64,000 nucleotides of DNA from a virus. The stretch's first letter is position 1, and each line of letters starts with the position of its first letter. The notes beneath the pieces are model-generated. The model saw nothing but the letters and a program-made list of their open reading frames with translations. It searched no databases and had not been told where the DNA came from. Below, piece after piece: positions 3,803 through 64,000 of the stretch. Position numbers and translations under genes: made by a program. The stretch lies in the UHGV virus genome UHGV-0120889; one strand, given 5' to 3'.

Positions 3803-5359
3803 TTAATTTTCCATGTTGGATATGGAATTATCTCTGGTTGATGACATCTTAGAAGTGCCGTTGCCAGTGGATCCTGCAGCCATTCCATCACCAGCCCTAC
3901 TGATGTCCTGGCCCAAGAGCTTCATCAGCTCTTCCTGATCCATGTCCTCGTCAAATCTTTCATCAAACCCGCCTACTTCAAGAATCTTATTAATTACTGC
4001 AGGAGTTTTTGGCAAGTAACCTACAGCACCGATCCTCTGGACAAACTTGGAGAAGCTCTCCATATCCACTTCTTCAATCAGACCAGGTTTCAGTTTAGGC
4101 ATATCATCATCTTCAAGGATGATACCATTCAATGCCAGAAGCTGCGGAATAAGATCTTTATTGAAGGCCTCAGTGATAATATCTATATCACGCTGAACAA
4201 AATGACCATGGATAGACTGTTTTGACTCAGACAGAGAGAAGGACCCAACGTTATCGTTACCGAGGTTAATAAAGCCAGCACCGAAACGGTCAAGAATCGC
4301 CTTCTTACGGGCATCAATCAAATCTTTAGTGGAATACTGCTTACCCATACCGTCAACCCCCTTCAGGGTCATGGAGTAAAGCTCTTTACCAGACTTATCT
4401 CTATCAGACGGAAGTATAAAGAAACTTTGCTCACCACTATGGGCGTTTGCTGCGTCAAGCATAAGGTCTGCAACCATTCTCCCTTCCATTGAATTCGGGT
4501 CAATGCTGGCCTTGTTCAAAATATTGGAAGGAATTTTCAGCTCAAGCACACCACCAAGGTCTTTGGAACAGCCAACAACCTCAAGGTTTTCAATCAGAAC
4601 TTTCTCACGGAAAGATCTGTAGCAACCTATCATCGGTGACACACCTGCAGGGTTAGATTCTGTTCCTGACAGGGTCATGAGCATAAGCTTTTTAGCAGGG
4701 ATGAAAATTTCAGGCTCATTAAAGCCTTTTGAAGGCATTGCAGCAAGAGGTCCAGCCCAGCGTGCATTCTGAGTGTTTAGAAATGCATTAGGTGATTGAT
4801 AAATACCTGTCAGTGTTCTACTATTCTTGTCAAAGACAAACGGCTCTGATCTGGACAAACTGGCCTGAGGTCGGAATGCAATTTTATCAATAAGAAGCAT
4901 CCCGGCATATTTACCTTCTTTCTCTCTGCGGTATACTTTCTCAAACAGTGAAAAACCATACTCGTTAAAGGTAGCTGCACTTCTTGCAATATCTCGAAGA
5001 GTTTGTTGGTTTGCCAAATTACGCAAAGAATACTCTATAAGCTCGGCAGCTTTCTTAGAGTCTTCACTTTTAACATTATAAAGGATCTTAAAATCATTAA
5101 ATGCTTTCGTGATGAAAACATATTTTGTATCTAAGGCAGTAGCAACTGTGGAATCACATTTCATAGTCTCCACTGTAGCAATCAGCTGAGGCCAACGCAA
5201 TTCCTCAACCATCATAGATTGCGATTCTGCCATAATTTGGGAAAGTGCGCCAGAACCGATCTCACTCATACGAACATTATGAGTTGGTGCGCCTGCGTTC
5301 CCAGATTTATTCACAGTTTTGGCTGTGGCGTTGTGTTTCCTGCGGTTCTTTTTGGACAC
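3803..5359 (-). CDS. portal protein
   Basis: 518 aa ORF immediately downstream of terminase large subunit on same strand; size and position typical of portal. Confidence 0.65.
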   Translation of the reverse strand: MSKKNRRKHNATAKTVNKSGNAGAPTHNVRMSEIGSGALSQIMAESQSMMVEELRWPQLIATVETMKCDSTVATALDTKYVFITKAFNDFKILYNVKSEDSKKAAELIEYSLRNLANQQTLRDIARSAATFNEYGFSLFEKVYRREKEGKYAGMLLIDKIAFRPQASLSRSEPFVFDKNSRTLTGIYQSPNAFLNTQNARWAGPLAAMPSKGFNEPEIFIPAKKLMLMTLSGTESNPAGVSPMIGCYRSFREKVLIENLEVVGCSKDLGGVLELKIPSNILNKASIDPNSMEGRMVADLMLDAANAHSGEQSFFILPSDRDKSGKELYSMTLKGVDGMGKQYSTKDLIDARKKAILDRFGAGFINLGNDNVGSFSLSESKQSIHGHFVQRDIDIITEAFNKDLIPQLLALNGIILEDDDMPKLKPGLIEEVDMESFSKFVQRIGAVGYLPKTPAVINKILEVGGFDERFDEDMDQEELMKLLGQDISRAGDGMAAGSTGNGTSKMSSTRDNSISNMEN

Positions 5360-5461
5360 AAGCTTTACCCCTCAAAACAGTATAACAAAATAGCCCTCGT
5401 GTTAGAGGGCTAGTATCTCCGATTACTCTATTCTACCACATCTAATTAAGATTGGCAACAC

Positions 5462-6583
5462 TTAGATAAAACGCTTGAACATAGAAGGTGATGAGATTGA
5501 TGGAATCACACAAGGAAGTGCTACTTCCTCTTTCTCCAGGAAATTAATAGCAGAAGCTACACAGTCAGCCCAGTCGTCTTTTCTGTTAAATGTTGATCTT
5601 TCCCCGTTGAATTTTTCAAGTTCAGTCAGAAATGCTTCCAGAGTATCAGGATGGAAACTGGATTTTACAATCCTCACCATTCCTTGTTGGGCAAGATTGG
5701 CAAAAGGTGAGAACCTTGTCAGTTTAGATTTGTTGGAAGGCATTGGGTCTTCTTCAACCCTAAACCCTTCGGCAAGCAAGGATCTGGAGGAGGTTAAGAA
5801 CTCACTCTTACCTGCCTGACCGGGGTCCACAGAGAATACGATTATACAATCATCACCATCAAACTGCGCCTGTTTCCTGATGATCACATCTCGTTCACCA
5901 GCCTTTTTACAGAACTTGCCTTCTAGACCTGTGGAATACCTCCCGTCATCCACGTTCTCAGGACAATAATCACCGGACAGGTAATAAAAGCCGTCGCTAT
6001 CTTTACTTACCTTAACACTGGCGGTAAAGTCAGGAAATTTATTACCGGAAGTTCTCTCGGTTCCTGCCTTATCCCATGCCCTGCAAGATACTGATCCAAG
6101 GGGTACTCTATCGGCATCACGAAGGAAAGATCTTTGAAAATAGTTTGCGCCCTCAGGCTTTGCAAACCAGTTACCATGAAGAAGCTGAGCTTTTTCCAGT
6201 TCCGGCAGACCTTCAAGGAAAGCAAGGTATTCTGGGTTGTCTCTTAAGCAAACAGGATTATCGAATATTGTTGCGCCTATAAACGAGAATGACAACGGTC
6301 TTGGCTTGATCTCCACACCAAGTCCGTTAACCGTGGTGTATTTCTCTATCAACTCTTCTTTAGAGTCCCCCCAGATAAATTCACCGTCGCGTCGGATAAA
6401 ATATCTTTTCTTACCGCATTTCTCCGGATCTGGATACCCTTCATCGTCCAACCACCACCTAACCAGTTTGGCAAGCATGTGTTCTGAATCGGGGTTACAG
6501 CTGATAACCATTCTTGATGGATACTTTGACTGAGATCGCAGACGAGACATCAGATAGTCTATCTGCTCCCATTCGAATTGTGT
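5462..6583 (-). CDS. terminase large subunit, exon 2 (C-terminal part of ATPase plus nuclease domain)
   Basis: Frame is open from 6583 (after in-frame TAA); begins TQFEWEQIDYLMSRLRSQ...MVISCNPDS, the expected continuation after Walker B. Exon start is placed at the proposed 3' splice site. Confidence 0.7.
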   Translation of the reverse strand, partial: TQFEWEQIDYLMSRLRSQSKYPSRMVISCNPDSEHMLAKLVRWWLDDEGYPDPEKCGKKRYFIRRDGEFIWGDSKEELIEKYTTVNGLGVEIKPRPLSFSFIGATIFDNPVCLRDNPEYLAFLEGLPELEKAQLLHGNWFAKPEGANYFQRSFLRDADRVPLGSVSCRAWDKAGTERTSGNKFPDFTASVKVSKDSDGFYYLSGDYCPENVDDGRYSTGLEGKFCKKAGERDVIIRKQAQFDGDDCIIVFSVDPGQAGKSEFLTSSRSLLAEGFRVEEDPMPSNKSKLTRFSPFANLAQQGMVRIVKSSFHPDTLEAFLTELEKFNGERSTFNRKDDWADCVASAINFLEKEEVALPCVIPSISSPSMFKRFI

Positions 6584-50091: not shown

Positions 50092-50300
50092 TAAACACAC
50101 ATGCATCTGAAGAGACATCCAAAGGAGTGACTATATGTCCCTTGACTGAGCCAGTGAAAGAGGAAAACTTCGATTCTGAAGATTCTCCATCTTCGCTCCA
50201 GGTAGATCCTGAGGTTGATGACCTAACGTGGGAGGACATCGTAGATATCTGGTTCTCTATTATGCCTGAGCACGAAGAGTTCAGGGGCGGCAGACTATGA
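50088..50300 (+). CDS. hypothetical acidic protein
   Basis: 70 aa. Confidence 0.35.
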   Translation: MINTHASEETSKGVTICPLTEPVKEENFDSEDSPSSLQVDPEVDDLTWEDIVDIWFSIMPEHEEFRGGRL

Positions 50301-50422
50301 AGCACCGAGCCCACACAGGTTCCTCATGCTAAAGCATGGCCTGAAGAGGCAAACGTGCATAATTCCAGCGTATTGGAACGCATAAAACCCTGTTCACACT
50401 CTCATTTTCCAGAGGAGATTTC

Positions 50423-50638
50423 ATGAAGATAGAAATATTTGGTGGAGCTGACAACACTCGTGGCCTGATTTACCTTGAATTCGAGGAATCATACCTGCCA
50501 GAGGTGTTAAATATAGACTCTGTTGCTGAGGCTTTGGGAGTAAACCCTAAAGAACTCCACTCTTGTGCTGAGATCGATGGTTGGGAAGAGACCATGAACA
50601 TTGATTTCAGTGAAGTAGAGGATGAACCGCTGGACTGA
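50423..50638 (+). CDS. hypothetical small acidic protein (MKIEIFGG...)
   Basis: 71 aa; family-like N-terminus. Confidence 0.4.
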   Translation: MKIEIFGGADNTRGLIYLEFEESYLPEVLNIDSVAEALGVNPKELHSCAEIDGWEETMNIDFSEVEDEPLD

Positions 50639-53102
50639 CACACAATTAGCTGCCCGGCTAAAGTGCTGGAAGCACCTATAACACATCTTTCAACTAAATT
50701 TCCTACCACCACAATCACTTACCTCCCACACATGACTGTTTGCTTGTTTAGTGAGCAGTCATGCCTTGACATTCTTGCCTATCTTGATAAAATTAAGTTC
50801 TTCTCTTTTCTTTTACCGAGTAATTCGGGTTTTCTGTTCTCTTCGGTTTGAAGGGGTATGGAGATACACCTGAGTGAACAGGGTGAACAACCGAACCTTT
50901 GGCTATGGCATTAGCATGGCGAAGCGGACGGGTGACGAAAGAGGGGCCGGAGGACACCAGTCACTGCCATATGATATATGGGTGATAACCTGAAGAGTCT
51001 GAATAAGTGTTTAAGTACCAGTCAGAGGAAAAGGTGAATGGTAGCCGAAGGGGGAGGGGGGTTTCTTGTATCTTTAATTTGTATATTATGTATACACTTG
51101 TAAACCAACACCATCTGAATTTGTTTACCACAGAAAGCGGATAGAGACAAATATTACCTATTAAACTTGAATTATTTATAGAAAATACCACAACACCACT
51201 TAAGTATTTGATTTTACACATAAATCCTACAGATATTCACCCTCCATATTTAACATACTTGTAACATATTCCATACTCTACCTGTCTGATCAATTTCCCC
51301 AACTACACCCACCATATTTTCCCTGTCTGTACCACCCCTGACCCGCCGGGAGTCCCGTCATATCTGGCTTTCCAGCAAATATCACACCCACAAATATCAT
51401 TGCCTGAAGAGGGTTTCATCCCATAATACATGCCTTACCTGAAGAGCGCTTCATACACCACGTAAATTTTTTAATTGACCCCCTCCCCGCCGCCGGAGAG
51501 GTTGTCTTTTCCCACACAGACCTGAAGAGTCAGTCAGAAATATCTGAATGGACCCAATTCTGCCCTGTCATGAGCGGTAGCGACTGGAGTGCTGCCAGGC
51601 GGACGAAATGGGAATACTTCTCATTCTTATAATAATTCTCAAATATCGAGGCAGTGAGGAAAATTAATAGGTGAGGCCGTTCACACAGTGGCACAACATT
51701 TGCAACCTATCTTGTGGGGGTGAATGAGAATACCTATCATTGTGAGAATAGTTATCATTACGGGCAATTTAACATAATACCCATTATGCGCACCACTGGC
51801 GATCCATACAGGGATTGATAACATGAGTTACAGTTTACGCATATAACAATCATATTTCTTACTATTTGTGTGGGATATAGTTAGCAGCCGATAGATTAGA
51901 TATTGACCTGTGGACTTCCAACCATCTAGACGTCTAAACGCCCACACAACAAGGATTATACATACATTACTGAATGTAAACAGGGCCGCAAAAATGCTAC
52001 CATACCAGTTTGTAAATTTTTCATGCAGCACTTGACAAAGAGGAGGAAAACTTGTCTGACATAATGTGACCTAACTGACACAACATGACACTTTTACACA
52101 CCTATTAGTTTACACACTGGATTGTTTACATTCCTGATTGTTCACATGCTAACCATTTACATGATTGACTGTTTACACACCGATAATCAGCCATGCCATT
52201 CGTTTGCATGACAATAATTATACATGACAATAATCGCACTGATTATAATTAGCATGACATAATATAAAAGCAGGGCAACTATTAGCAGATCTATAGTTGC
52301 CTTGCTTGTCATGTCATGATTAACTAAATACAAGGCAACTATGATCTGATTAATAGTTTGCAGACAAACTATCACGGGGGTGATGGTTACTGCTTTTATA
52401 TTATGTCGCGACTCCGTCGCGCCATGCCATTCGTTTGCATAGTTGCCTTATTGTTACAGGTAAAATAATTGTATTGTTAATTATTTCTTATCTTTCTATT
52501 AGTCATCTAATGATTCCAGTTAGTATAGTAACGTACAGTAAACATTAGACGACTAAAGATTTCTCTGCTTATGATAACCTAACGTGACAATTTCAGACTG
52601 TTTACGAAAAATGTTGACACCTGAGCTGATTTATGTTATGCAGTTTACACGAATAATTATTTTATGCAGGTATTGACTATTCCGTTATTCTATGGTTGGA
52701 ATAAATACTTAGCAGACTATAGAATGGTGAGCGTACGTAAATTCTGAGATCTGTCGGCTATAGTTATACTCGATTTTTCACGTAGAACACGCTTTTTGGT
52801 TTGTGTAAGTGTATGACTTATAAAGATTTTTAGTTGTTGACAAGATATTGGAGATGTGCATCAGATTAAATTTTGTGCAATAGCTACATTACGTGCACTT
52901 TTGGAAGAAAAAACGTGTAAAAATGGCCCTGCTACCACACAATGAAAGATTATGCAATAGTTATTTTATATGTATATTTGTACAGTGTGTGGGATTAATG
53001 GCTAGTCAATTATTCCACTTGCCAGGTAGGGCCGTTTATGGTAGGAGAAGAGCAGACAAAAAGAAAGGGGCCTTTAAGCCCCTTGATAATTCAATTAAGA
53101 AA

Positions 53103-54263: not shown

Positions 54264-54480
54264 AGTGTTTTCCTCTCTCCTGGTTGTTGTGTGGGCACTT
54301 TTGCCCCTTCAAGATAAATGTTACCTCACCCCATGGCAGATGTCAACGGTTTTTATAGTTCTTATATGACAGGCAGGCCCGGTGATTGTCTCCCCCTGTT
54401 CCCAAGTGCCGCCCGTTTAATAAGAATAGCAAAAGGGGCCGAACAAGTCAACCCCAAAATCAGTACCAAAACACTTTTAT

Positions 54481-56407: not shown

Positions 56408-56461
56408 GATGATTTACCTCTCTTTATTTTCATAATTGGGGCCGAAAAGGCCCCACCAGGT

Positions 56462-56746: not shown

Positions 56747-56947
56747 GATTTTAACTCCTATCTATCCGGTTAATGATTGGGGGCCGCCCCCCTGACACGT
56801 CCTATTATCCATATTGTAGGACTTGATGCAAGTACTTCTTTAAAAATTTTTTAAGCGCCTTGGGGCCGCTGTAACGCTAAAATAATAAAGGCCATGCAAC
56901 CGCATAGCCTTTATGTGATTATATCGCTGCAGGCCCTGCCTGGGGCC

Positions 56948-63218: not shown

Positions 63219-64000
63219 GATTTTTTATCCTCTCTGTTAATTGGTGTGGTGTTGTTCACCTTGCGAGGATAAGAATAACAAGAACTGTCCGAGCTGTCAA
63301 CCATTAGTTAAAATTATTTTTTGGGTAGAATTCTCCAGCCGCCGCCCCTGCCAGGTTAACCATCATTTTTCGTACTCTTCTTTATGTTCCAACGCTCCCG
63401 CCATAGCCTTTTCAACCAGGGCGATAGCCTCAGCGTCATTAATAGCTACATTTTCCAGGTGGATCATATTACCTTCCATTTTTGTACCTCCTCTTCAATT
63501 GTTACCTATCCTATAGCATAGGCCCACCAGGTTTGCAAGCCTTCATTCTCTCCTACCTGGTCAGTTAGGCCCTGCCAGGCTGGCCCCGCCAGGTTGCAGC
63601 GGTCAGCGCATCAGGTTAGAATTTTTTTTTTTTTTGAAAAGTGTTGACAGCGGCCCCGCCAGGTGGCAAAATATACCTATCGAAAGGACGGCAGGCACCG
63701 GTGACGGGGGAGACAATCACCGGGCCTGCCCGTTATTCTGCAAACGAGAATGATTATCATTCAAAATTCTAAATGAGAACTCCTCGCATTTAATAAATTT
63801 AATTAGCACGCTAATTACCCTCCGTAACAATTTCCTATAAAATAGTATCCACTAAAATATTCCCATATAGAAATTTTAAAAATCCATTTCTGAAAACGAA
63901 AAATCGATTTCGTCCCCAAAAATTTCAGGTCGAGAGCCGGAACGATTTCCAGAAAATCCGATTCAGAAAACGAAAAACAGATCGAGTACTGAGAAATTTA

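What the first reader, a model, noticed from the sequence alone, without database searches (positions are those of the whole stretch)
63300..64000. Repeat-rich right end: five CCC(C/T)GCCAGG motifs, a T14 run, a compound hairpin and GAAAACGAAAAA direct repeats
Seen: CCCNGCCAGG-like motifs at about 63341, 63523, 63572, 63585 and 63653; a run of 14 T at about 63624-63637 followed by TTGACA; a long interrupted hairpin ACGGCAGGC-ACCGGTGA-loop-TCACCGG-GCCTGCCCGT (about 63689-63735); and two copies of CTGAAAACGAAAAA about 95 bp apart in an AT-rich stretch. No ORF. Inference: protein-binding site array or genome terminus/packaging region.
Basis: partly seen in the sequence, partly recalled or inferred. 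Interest (0 to 1): 0.5.

Follow-up and report, generated by a model that had tools for sequence, protein, structure and literature searches.

The report
Essential non-coding control region, rV5-like phage
The repeat-rich "right end" is not a genome end but a window cut through a conserved non-coding control region of rV5-like phages, which holds a strong host-type promoter, a host iron-repressor (Fur) binding site and AT-rich repeats, cannot be disrupted by transposons, and is most likely the phage's replication origin or, less likely, its packaging signal.

Summary
The window is part of a ~137-kb rV5-like Vequintavirus genome, 99.6% identical to Bas54/MaxBurger here. Relatives continue past position 64000, and the family is circularly permuted, so this is no terminus. 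Most observations are real: four exact CCCYGCCAGG copies (0.1 expected) plus one variant, a T14 run and 12-nt direct repeats. The "compound hairpin" is real but private. A 134-bp deletion, absent from the 30 best relatives, fused two paralogous units, and intact units fold no better than shuffles. "No ORF" is wrong for 63363-63479. The T-run lies just upstream of a conserved rightward sigma-70 promoter whose spacer holds motif copy 5. Downstream lie an invariant core GAGACAATCACC, then 35 nt on a Fur operator (22/23 identical to the ryhB operator in its consensus form), then indel-free AT-rich repeats. The same layout occurs in six other genera. Published transposon data for Bas54 score window 63815-63919 as essential (0/11 TA sites hit) and 63616-63760 as a strong fitness defect, while flanking genes are dispensable. 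The ORFs called there are not credible genes. Best reading: a cis-acting, transcription-activated replication origin (0.4). Rivals: pac site, ncRNA locus.

The parts
63344..63356 (+). GC motif copy 1 (GCCCCTGCCAGGT)
   Evidence: 12 of 13 columns invariant in 8 Vequintavirus genomes. It lies in the 3' tail of the small ORF in Bas54, but after the stop codon in the window because of a 1-nt T-run indel.
63363..63479 (-). Small ORF, 38 aa here (58 aa in Bas54 as bas54_0103), with a GAGGAGG Shine-Dalgarno at 63487-63493
   Evidence: Tolerates transposon insertions in Bas54: 12 of 14 TA sites hit, call 'Intermediate'.
63510..63538 (-). Weak leftward sigma-70-like site TTGCAA-N17-TATAGG, with motif copy 2 (63521-63532) in its spacer
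   Evidence: Read from the sequence; the promoter scan did not call it. Not conserved: the -35 is altered in rV5 and the segment is deleted in HMD6, FV3, DrSchubert and Mangalyan. Only 28 of 102 columns of 63480-63581 are invariant.
63568..63594 (+). GC motif copies 3 (63568-63580) and 4 (63582-63594), in tandem 14 nt apart
   Evidence: Copy 4 is invariant in 13 of 13 columns. Copy 3 is lost by repeat-to-repeat deletions in several phages.
63622..63635 (+). T14 run; an A/T tract at about -22 to -9 nt upstream of the -35 hexamer, at the position of an UP element
   Evidence: The length varies from T6 to T18 among relatives, so it is a slippage-prone homopolymer and its exact length is not critical.
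63644..63672 (+). Strong rightward sigma-70 promoter: TTGACA, 17-nt spacer, TG-extended CAAAAT. GC motif copy 5 (63652-63664) fills its spacer. Predicted start ~63679.
   Evidence: 10 of 12 matches plus TG. 27 of 29 columns invariant. Promoters at the equivalent position with GC-rich GGCCC...GGG spacers occur in other genera. It points against all flanking genes.
63688..63733 (+). Chimeric 'compound hairpin' made by the 134-bp deletion (junction within GGGAGACAA, ~63706-63714). Contains the invariant core GAGACAATCACC at 63710-63721.
   Evidence: z = -4.2; one search shows the native units are not unusually stable. The core is conserved in seven genera. Further copies: two in tandem in relatives, one at window ~54381 on the minus strand.
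63740..63759 (.). Fur operator: GCAAACGAGAATGATTATC (14 of 19 to the classical Fur box); 7-1-7 palindrome CGAGAATGATTATCA at 63745-63759; exactly 35 nt after the core
   Evidence: The consensus form found in HMD6 and other genera (TGCAAATGAGAATGATTATCATT) is 22/23 identical to the ryhB operator and 19/19 to the mntH upstream site. Both are strong Fur clusters in PMC2189734. Invariant in Vequintavirus.
63774..63788 (.). Second, degenerate box TGAGAACTCCTCGCA, 29 bp after the first
   Evidence: The same 29-bp period of 2-4 boxes is seen in Phapecoctavirus, Certrevirus, Seunavirus and Mydovirus.
63815..63919 (.). AT-rich segment that cannot be disrupted (equivalent of the 'ORF' bas54_0101)
   Evidence: 0 of 11 TA sites hit, call 'Essential'. 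The mapping is verified by identical TA counts. The ORF has in-frame stops in 3 of 9 genomes. No indel column across 63789-64000. The equivalent part of the relative's genome holds the second-lowest GC of any 150-bp window.
63866..63996 (+). Two of three ~57-nt imperfect direct repeats, holding GAAAACGAAAAA (63892, 63966), AAATCC(A/G)(T/A)TT, and the iterons TCGAGA (63930) and GATCGAG (63980)
   Evidence: ATCGAG: 3 of the genome's 20 + strand copies lie within 0.58 kb, all in one orientation. TCGAGA-type iterons recur at the equivalent position in Certrevirus, Seunavirus, Mydovirus and a divergent Vequintavirus-like contig.

Best explanation
This is an internal, cis-acting control region of rV5-like phages, most likely the replication origin, of the transcription-activated kind. 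Proposed mechanism, with steps marked. (1) Early in infection, host RNA polymerase fires rightward from the UP-tract/TTGACA/TG-CAAAAT promoter at 63644-63672, against the flow of all neighbouring genes. The promoter's quality and conservation are shown; its activity is inferred. (2) The transcript crosses the unit with the invariant core GAGACAATCACC and, 35 nt further, a Fur operator. The sequence is shown; Fur binding, and hence iron-dependent gating of read-through, is inferred. (3) Transcription then enters the AT-rich, indel-free, iteron-bearing DNA at 63790-64000 and beyond, where it opens or primes the duplex for the phage's T7-like DNA polymerase and primase-helicase (inferred). (4) The GGCCCYGCCAGGT copies are reiterations of the promoter's GC-rich spacer and would act as operator-like sites for a still unknown regulator of that promoter (inferred). 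Only the two copies nearest the promoter are constrained. The long hairpin plays no part: it is a side-product of a private deletion between two tandem units.
For: The region is internal and conserved: 113 phage records cover at least 80% of the 1.1-kb query around it, and the same layout sits inside a 0.4-0.9 kb unannotated gap in six other genera of two subfamilies. That layout is promoter(s), core, Fur box(es) at fixed spacing, then AT-rich repeats. It is essential but non-coding. In Bas54, 0 of 11 and 5 of 15 TA sites are hit in the two 'ORFs' that cover it, against 18/21, 12/14 and 13/13 in the neighbours (mapped). Those ORFs carry stops or frameshifts, lack a Shine-Dalgarno and show only non-synonymous change. 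Polar effects are unlikely because insertions in the downstream genes are tolerated. Origin-like anatomy: a strong promoter aimed into very AT-rich DNA, one-orientation iterons about 37-fold enriched, and no indels in the AT-rich part. T7-like DNA polymerase and helicase/primase genes lie 9-14 kb away, and no initiator protein is annotated. A GC/AT-skew change-point falls at the locus inside a block of co-oriented genes. The rV5 authors could not locate the origin (PMC3606486).
Against: No replication data exist. The skew step has the opposite sign to the classical bacterial origin pattern, and a boundary between transcription units would also explain it. In T7 and T4, single origins are dispensable, so strict essentiality fits a pac site at least as well. 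A second transposon-free intergenic region (~2 kb, window ~50.2-52.8 kb) could be the origin instead. No initiator protein or DnaA boxes were identified. Fur operators are not a known part of phage origins. The transposon evidence comes from a preprint's per-gene table; per-site counts for this locus were not available.
Confidence: 0.4

Rival explanations
1. It is the pac site. Terminase recognises the one-orientation iterons and AT-rich, possibly bent DNA, with Fur as a host accessory factor, and starts headful packaging series here.
For: The family packages by headful with (partial) circular permutation (PMC3606486, PMC3475682, PMC13211470), so a pac site should exist and would be strictly essential in cis. 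That matches 0/11 TA hits. Short reiterated motifs flanking AT-rich DNA resemble the P1 and SPP1 pac sites (established knowledge). A strong Fur operator lies ~25 bp from a lambda-type cosN in lambdoid prophages, and PMC2189734 lists strong Fur clusters upstream of nohA and nohB. Two unverified circularised assemblies are opened inside this locus.
Against: The locus is ~57 kb from the terminase genes, whereas pac sites usually lie in or beside terS. The conserved, strong, outward-facing promoters have no obvious role in packaging. The two assembly break points may reflect the polymorphic T-run and repeats rather than physical ends. No pac coordinate is published.
Confidence: 0.22
2. It is a locus of small non-coding RNAs. 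The promoter-plus-core units (two in tandem in relatives, one here, one more at ~54.4 kb) each make a short RNA acting in trans on host or phage targets, possibly opposed by a Fur-repressed antisense promoter (TTGAAT-N18-CAGAAT across the Fur box).
For: Promoter function is conserved while promoter sequence diverges across genera. There is a stand-alone third copy with its own promoter in a 218-bp intergenic gap. The invariant 12-nt core could be a seed or a protein-binding loop. The Fur operator is of the ryhB type.
Against: No Rfam family matches. RNAalifold gives no consensus fold. Native units are no more stable than shuffles on either strand. The CC/GG variation in unit 2 is uncompensated. 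There is no clear terminator. The most insertion-intolerant part is the AT-rich repeat DNA, which is not conserved in sequence between genera, as expected for protein-binding DNA rather than an RNA.
Confidence: 0.15
3. It is an ordinary intergenic regulatory region (promoters, terminators, operators) for the neighbouring early genes, and the transposon intolerance is indirect.
For: There is a compositional step at the locus consistent with a boundary between transcription units. A terminator-like AT-rich hairpin lies on the minus strand at 63923-63886. GC-motif near-copies elsewhere sit at terminator- or promoter-like intergenic sites.
Against: Neighbouring genes on both sides tolerate insertions, so there is no essential gene to regulate nearby and no sign of polarity. 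The only strong conserved promoters point away from all coding sequence. ~0.9 kb of non-coding DNA conserved across two subfamilies is far more than ordinary punctuation needs.
Confidence: 0.1
4. It is a physical genome terminus or terminal repeat.
For: Only the position at the end of the window and the repeat richness.
Against: All relatives examined continue through it. The family is circularly permuted. None of the motifs recurs at the other end of the window.
Confidence: 0.02

Closest known systems
Phage T7 primary origin (tandem promoters phi1.1A/1.1B followed by an AT-rich segment) and T4 oriF/oriG (promoter plus downstream unwinding element)
   Same: One or two tandem promoters aimed into very AT-rich DNA. 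The replisome is of T7 type (family A polymerase, gp4-like primase-helicase). No dedicated initiator gene is evident.
   Different: The promoters are host sigma-70 type, not phage-polymerase or MotA-dependent. A Fur operator and a conserved 12-nt core sit between the promoter and the AT-rich DNA. The locus appears indispensable, whereas T7 and T4 origins are individually dispensable. Replication initiation here is untested.
Lambda ori (four palindromic 19-bp iterons, then an AT-rich segment, activated by transcription)
   Same: An array of 2-4 palindromic ~19-bp boxes at a regular period (29 bp), next to AT-rich DNA and downstream of a promoter.
   Different: The boxes are host Fur operators, invariant across genera, rather than phage-specific initiator sites. 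The region is not inside an initiator gene, and no O-like protein is known.
Fur operator of the E. coli ryhB promoter, and of mntH
   Same: 22/23 and 19/19 identity to the consensus form of the phage box. Both are among the strong Fur clusters of E. coli (PMC2189734).
   Different: In ryhB the operator overlaps the -10 of the regulated promoter. In the phage no good promoter overlaps it; it lies ~60 nt downstream of a transcription start. The window's copy has C for T at the first palindrome position.
P1 and SPP1 pac sites; lambdoid cos with an adjacent Fur site (nohA/nohB/nohD prophages)
   Same: Short reiterated motifs around AT-rich DNA, a host-factor site, and a strict cis requirement. A Fur box sits beside a packaging site in lambdoid prophages.
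   Different: The locus is far from the terminase genes. No end or cleavage data exist. Strong promoters are part of the conserved module.
phiTE pseudo-ToxI ncRNA locus (a non-coding locus in an rV5-like phage)
   Same: A non-coding, repeat-containing locus in a related phage whose repeats expand and contract by slippage or recombination.
   Different: It is not the same locus. phiTE has this module, but no ToxI-like sequence lies within 8.9 kb of it (best 20/36).

Membership tests
Physical genome terminus / terminal repeat | The sequence ends here in related genomes, or is repeated at the other genome end | tested here: not met
   Relatives run through the region. The motifs are absent from the rest of the window and of a complete genome. 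The family is reported to be circularly permuted.
Fur operator (Fur box) | Match to the 19-bp consensus GATAATGATAATCATTATC and the 7-1-7 inverted repeat TGATAATnATTATCA | tested here: met
   Window: 14/19 and 13/15 specified positions of the 7-1-7. Consensus form in other genera: 15/19 with one 7-1-7 mismatch (sequence).
Fur operator (Fur box) | Identity with experimentally verified operators | tested here: met
   22/23 to the ryhB operator (RyhB confirmed by Rfam at 83 bits) and 19/19 to the mntH upstream site. Both are in Table 4 of PMC2189734, and ryhB is gel-shift confirmed.
Fur operator (Fur box) | Overlaps the promoter it represses | tested here: inconclusive
   No good rightward promoter overlaps it. 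A leftward TTGAAT-N18-CAGAAT with the box in its spacer is present in most genera but is weak and absent from Phapecoctavirus.
Fur operator (Fur box) | Bound by Fe-Fur | not testable with these tools
   Needs EMSA, footprinting or ChIP.
Transcription-activated phage origin (T7 / T4 oriF type) | Promoter directed into an AT-rich unwinding element | tested here: met
   (GC 0.25 per 150 bp, second lowest in the genome).
Transcription-activated phage origin (T7 / T4 oriF type) | Required in cis and non-coding | tested here: met
   HIDEN-SEQ table, mapped. The ORFs are not credible. Cis versus trans action itself is not resolved.
Transcription-activated phage origin (T7 / T4 oriF type) | DNA synthesis starts here | not testable with these tools
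   Needs marker-frequency analysis, 2D gels or origin cloning.
Transcription-activated phage origin (T7 / T4 oriF type) | Strand-composition switch at the site | tested here: inconclusive
   The change-point is at the locus, but its polarity is opposite to the bacterial pattern and it is confounded by transcription units.
pac site | Lies in or next to the small-terminase gene | tested here: not met
   The terminase genes are ~57 kb away in LR694610.
pac site | Preferred DNA end or read-start pile-up in virion DNA | not testable with these tools
   There is only anecdotal opening of two unverified assemblies inside the locus.
Structured small RNA / known RNA family | Match to a curated family, a fold more stable than shuffles in homologues, and covariation | tested here: not met
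   No Rfam hits. z is about -1.5 to +1 for native units. No consensus fold. Changes are uncompensated.
Type III antitoxin mimic (pseudo-ToxI) | Tandem 36-nt repeats similar to ToxI | tested here: not met
   Best 20-21 of 36 matches, which is chance level, in phiTE, CB7, the rV5-like loci and the window.
Sigma-70 promoter with UP-like tract | -35, 17-bp spacer, -10, TG extension and an upstream A/T tract, conserved across relatives | tested here: met
   (27/29 invariant). Analogous promoters occur in other genera. Activity was not tested.

The most novel reading that the evidence does not exclude
Vequintavirinae and Stephanstirmvirinae share an indispensable cis element (origin or packaging signal) that is driven by host RNA polymerase and gated by the host iron repressor Fur through a ryhB-type operator placed between the promoter and the AT-rich iteron DNA. 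In that case these strictly lytic phages would couple genome replication or packaging to the host's iron status.
Probability: 0.15. Interest if true: 0.8.

Novelty: new variant of a known kind. Interest (0 to 1): 0.6.

Why it matters
rV5-like phages are widely used as therapy and biocontrol candidates, yet neither their replication origin nor their packaging signal is known. The rV5 authors searched for the origin by skew analysis and failed. This locus is a concrete, testable candidate. It also shows that two "essential hypothetical proteins" in a published essentiality map (bas54_0101 and bas54_0102) are almost certainly a non-coding element, which matters for annotation and for choosing safe insertion sites when engineering these phages. 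A canonical Fur operator conserved in an indispensable non-coding region of lytic phages across seven genera, and also sitting beside cosN in lambdoid prophages, suggests a link between host iron sensing and phage DNA transactions. I found no mention of such a link in the library searched.

Tried and rejected
(1) Known RNA families: permissive Rfam searches of the window's last 14.5 kb and of three related loci gave only chance-level hits elsewhere. (2) A conserved RNA hairpin: RNAalifold found no consensus fold, shuffle controls showed only the window's chimeric hairpin is exceptional, and the CC/GG variation is uncompensated. (3) phiTE pseudo-ToxI: a different locus. (4) A resemblance between window ~54.55 kb and the first structured segment of other genera falls inside a 103-aa ORF and was dropped. 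(5) Collecting homologues by scanning viral contigs for the box returned at least 120 unrelated contigs. The box is a generic Fur-type motif, which was useless for alignment but informative. (6) The leftward promoter for the small ORF (TTGCAA-17-TATAGG) is not conserved and is often deleted. (7) The ORFs called in the region by some annotators (rV5 ORF198, bas54_0100 to 0102) were rejected as genes. (8) Tandem Repeats Finder sees only a minor 12-nt array; the repeats are dispersed and imperfect. (9) Per-TA-site HIDEN-SEQ counts for this locus are not in the stored supplement. (10) Literature searches for an origin, a pac coordinate or a transcriptome of this phage group found nothing usable. 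(11) By eye I found no convincing DnaA box conserved among relatives: TATCCAC at ~63847 is lost in MaxTheCat.

Full report
IDENTITY AND CONTEXT. The last 1.1 kb of the window matches 122 phage records, and 113 of them cover at least 80% of it at 90-99% identity. All are rV5-like myoviruses (genus Vequintavirus, genomes ~135-140 kb). In annotated relatives the region lies inside a long block of small minus-strand genes, and the non-coding stretch runs ~370 bp beyond window position 64000 before the next gene. The "right end" is therefore where the window was cut. rV5, PVP-SE1 and phiTE are described as circularly permuted and terminally redundant (PMC3606486, PMC3475682). PhageTerm on another Vequintavirus inferred headful packaging (PMC13211470). 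The rV5 authors tried to locate the origin by skew analysis and could not.

CHECK OF THE OBSERVATIONS. CCCYGCCAGG occurs 4 times, at 63346, 63570, 63584 and 63654, all on the + strand, against 0.1 expected. The full motif is GGCCCYGCCAGGT. The T-run is T14 at 63622-63635, and TTGACA follows at 63644. The hairpin at 63688-63733 is real (z = -4.2). GAAAACGAAAAA occurs at 63892 and 63966, 74 bp apart, and nowhere else in a complete relative genome. "No ORF" is wrong for 63363-63479, where a 38-codon minus-strand ORF with a strong Shine-Dalgarno is annotated in relatives.

THE HAIRPIN IS A PRIVATE DELETION PRODUCT. All 30 best relatives, the 12 best for a junction-spanning query and 8 diverse Vequintavirus genomes carry 134 extra bases between two direct repeats GGGAGACAA(C/T)CACCGGG. 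They have two tandem units, each made of a promoter, a ~60-nt segment with the core GAGACAAnCACC, and a palindromic box. The window's genome has recombined the two units into one, joining the 5' arm of unit 1 to the 3' arm of unit 2. Only this chimera is unusually stable (z = -4.3 as RNA on both strands). Native units in relatives and in six other genera have z mostly between -1.5 and +1. RNAalifold finds no consensus fold, and a CC/GG difference in unit 2 is uncompensated. No Rfam family matches. What is conserved is primary sequence, not a helix.

ANATOMY, LEFT TO RIGHT. (a) 63344-63594 holds GC-motif copies 1-4. Footprinting shows copy 4 is invariant (13/13 columns). The segment with copies 2-3 and a weak leftward promoter is deleted in HMD6, FV3, DrSchubert and Mangalyan, and copies 3 and 4 are fused in assembly C2, with break points inside the motif copies. 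This part is recombinationally plastic and largely dispensable. (b) The T-run varies from T6 to T18. It sits just upstream of the -35, where an UP element would be. (c) 63644-63672 is a strong sigma-70 promoter (TTGACA, 17 nt, TG-CAAAAT), 27/29 invariant, pointing right against all flanking genes. Motif copy 5 fills its spacer. The equivalent promoters in other genera also have GC-rich GGCCC...GGG spacers, so the upstream copies look like reiterations of this spacer element. (d) The core GAGACAATCACC (63710-63721) is conserved in seven genera. (e) Exactly 35 nt downstream in every genus lies a palindromic box, followed by 1-3 more at a 29-bp period. In the window these are 63745-63759 and a degenerate one at 63774-63788. 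(f) From ~63790 onwards comes very AT-rich DNA with ~57-nt imperfect direct repeats and one-orientation (A/G)TCGAG iterons. This part has substitutions but no indel column among 8 genomes.

THE BOX IS A FUR OPERATOR. A search of 5,426 complete E. coli genomes with the consensus form of the box found two informative intergenic matches. One is 22/23 identical and lies immediately upstream of the RyhB sRNA gene (Rfam RF00057, 83 bits). The other is 19/19 identical and lies ~45 bp upstream of mntH. PMC2189734 ranks the ryhB Fur cluster at 25.2 bits (position -15, gel-shift confirmed) and mntH at 19.9 bits. The pattern also hits at least 120 unrelated viral contigs, as expected for a generic host operator. 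The box is invariant across phage genera that infect different Enterobacterales, whereas the right-hand iterons differ between genera. That argues the box is read by a conserved host factor and the iterons by phage proteins (inference). A third E. coli match is a Fur box ~25 bp from a lambda-type cosN and ~215 bp upstream of the terminase small-subunit gene nohD. This fits the strong Fur clusters listed upstream of nohA and nohB.

THE REGION IS INDISPENSABLE BUT NON-CODING. Bas54 of the HIDEN-SEQ preprint (10.1101/2025.11.20.689424) is MaxBurger MZ501093, 99.6% identical to the window here. My TA-site counts per feature (21, 3, 11, 15, 14, 13) reproduce the paper's table exactly, which confirms the mapping. 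The results, are: bas54_0101 (window 63815-63919), 0 of 11 TA sites hit, "Essential"; bas54_0102 (window 63616-63760 plus the deleted 134 bp), 5 of 15, "Strong fitness defect"; bas54_0100 (63925 onwards), 1 of 3; flanking genes 18/21, 12/14 and 13/13, dispensable. The "ORFs" are not credible. The 34-codon one has in-frame stops in 3 of 9 genomes. The 91-codon one starts inside the Fur box without a Shine-Dalgarno, ends in the variable T-run, shows only non-synonymous differences, and is frameshifted by the window's own deletion. Insertions in the downstream genes are tolerated, so polarity does not explain the result. The indispensable entity is therefore cis-acting DNA or an RNA. The authors remarked only on a different ~2-kb insertion-free intergenic region, which corresponds to window ~50.2-52.8 kb. 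That region is repeat-poor and has no Rfam match.

INTERPRETATION. A strong, conserved, outward-facing host promoter (two or three in tandem in relatives and other genera) aimed into very AT-rich, iteron-bearing, spacing-constrained DNA that is required for propagation fits a transcription-activated origin best. These phages have a T7-type polymerase and primase-helicase and no known initiator. A GC/AT-skew change-point coincides with the locus inside a co-oriented gene block: -0.071 to the left, -0.125 to the right. Its sign is not the classical one, and a transcription-unit boundary would also explain it. The main rival is a pac site. It would explain strict essentiality better and has the lambdoid Fur/cos parallel, but the locus is ~57 kb from the terminase genes and the promoters would be unexplained. 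A trans-acting small-RNA locus is weakened by the lack of any structural signal and by the fact that the most intolerant part is genus-specific AT-rich DNA. I put the origin at 0.40, pac at 0.22, an ncRNA locus at 0.15, ordinary regulatory DNA at 0.10 and a terminus at 0.02.

VERDICT. What is there is a conserved, indispensable, non-coding module with a ryhB-type Fur operator. It is a new variant of known cis-acting phage control regions and a concrete candidate for the long-missing origin (or pac site) of rV5-like phages.

Noticed in passing
window ~50230-52790: A ~2.5-kb stretch with no annotated gene, between the + strand and - strand gene blocks; GC is 0.34 at 52-53 kb. The equivalent gap in Bas54 (bas54_0134/0135) received no transposon insertions (HIDEN-SEQ preprint). 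It is repeat-poor: one 20-nt repeat 231 bp apart and an 18-nt perfect inverted repeat at 52256/52390. It has two Fur-box-like sites at 51627 and 51743 and no Rfam match. It is an alternative candidate for the origin or pac site.
   Followed up: partly
window 54360-54450, minus strand: A third copy of the promoter-plus-core unit: TTGACT-17-TATTCT, then AAACGGGCGGCAC...GAGACAATCACCGGGCCTGCCTGT. It lies in a 218-bp gap between two minus-strand ORFs and is followed by another promoter (TTGACA-17-TAACAT, 54346-54318). No Fur box or iterons are attached.
   Followed up: partly
window 63368-63372 (T5 versus T6 in relatives): A 1-nt homopolymer indel shortens the small ORF from 58 aa (Bas54) to 38 aa. 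rV5 and HMD6 share the short form, so the C-terminal tail that contains GC-motif copy 1 is translated in some phages and not in others.
   Followed up: yes
window 56449-56461 and 56932-56944: Two further near-copies of the GC motif, in the same orientation, at intergenic sites of the early block. The first forms the 5' arm of a terminator-like hairpin on the minus strand (GGGGCC-TTTTC-GGCCCC). The second is a GGCCC-N6-GGGCC dyad just upstream of a TATAAT.
   Followed up: partly
L142 2425-2517 (E. coli O68:H12 prophage); also the nohA and nohB entries of PMC2189734: A near-perfect Fur box (GCAAATGATAATGATTATCATTTGC) lies ~25 bp from a lambda-type cosN and ~215 bp upstream of the terminase small-subunit gene nohD. 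So strong Fur operators sit beside the packaging site of lambdoid prophages. I found no discussion of this.
   Followed up: partly
L003 2330-2470, L005 2320-2455, L006 985-1115 (other genera; not in the window): In Phapecoctavirus, Certrevirus, Seunavirus, Mydovirus and Henunavirus the first rightward promoter is followed by a ~100-nt GC-rich segment conserved across genera (GCCACCCCACGGCGAAAAGGCGGGGCTAAC...GGAAGGTGGATCGCCGGTAGTTCG). It has no Rfam match and is absent from Vequintavirus. It may be an undescribed structured RNA.
   Followed up: no
GenBank MG065635-MG065682 ('Campylobacter phage' D#, C9, C12, A112b, C2 and others): Seventeen unannotated records, of which the two inspected are marked UNVERIFIED, are named Campylobacter phages but are 95-99% identical to rV5-like coliphages. 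Two of them (A112b and C2) are circular assemblies opened inside this locus, at window ~63553 and ~63684.
   Followed up: partly
Bas54 / MaxBurger bas54_0100 to bas54_0102 (window 63616-64000 and beyond); rV5 ORF198: ORFs annotated across the non-coding module are very probably spurious. Two of them are scored 'Essential' or 'Strong fitness defect' as hypothetical proteins in the HIDEN-SEQ tables.
   Followed up: yes
A3 columns ~1000-1180 (L001 ~5290-5470, beyond the window end): A ~180-bp stretch inside the same non-coding gap is far more variable among Vequintavirus genomes than its surroundings, and the differences show no codon periodicity. It is flanked by highly conserved AAATCCATTTTAG repeats.
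   Followed up: no
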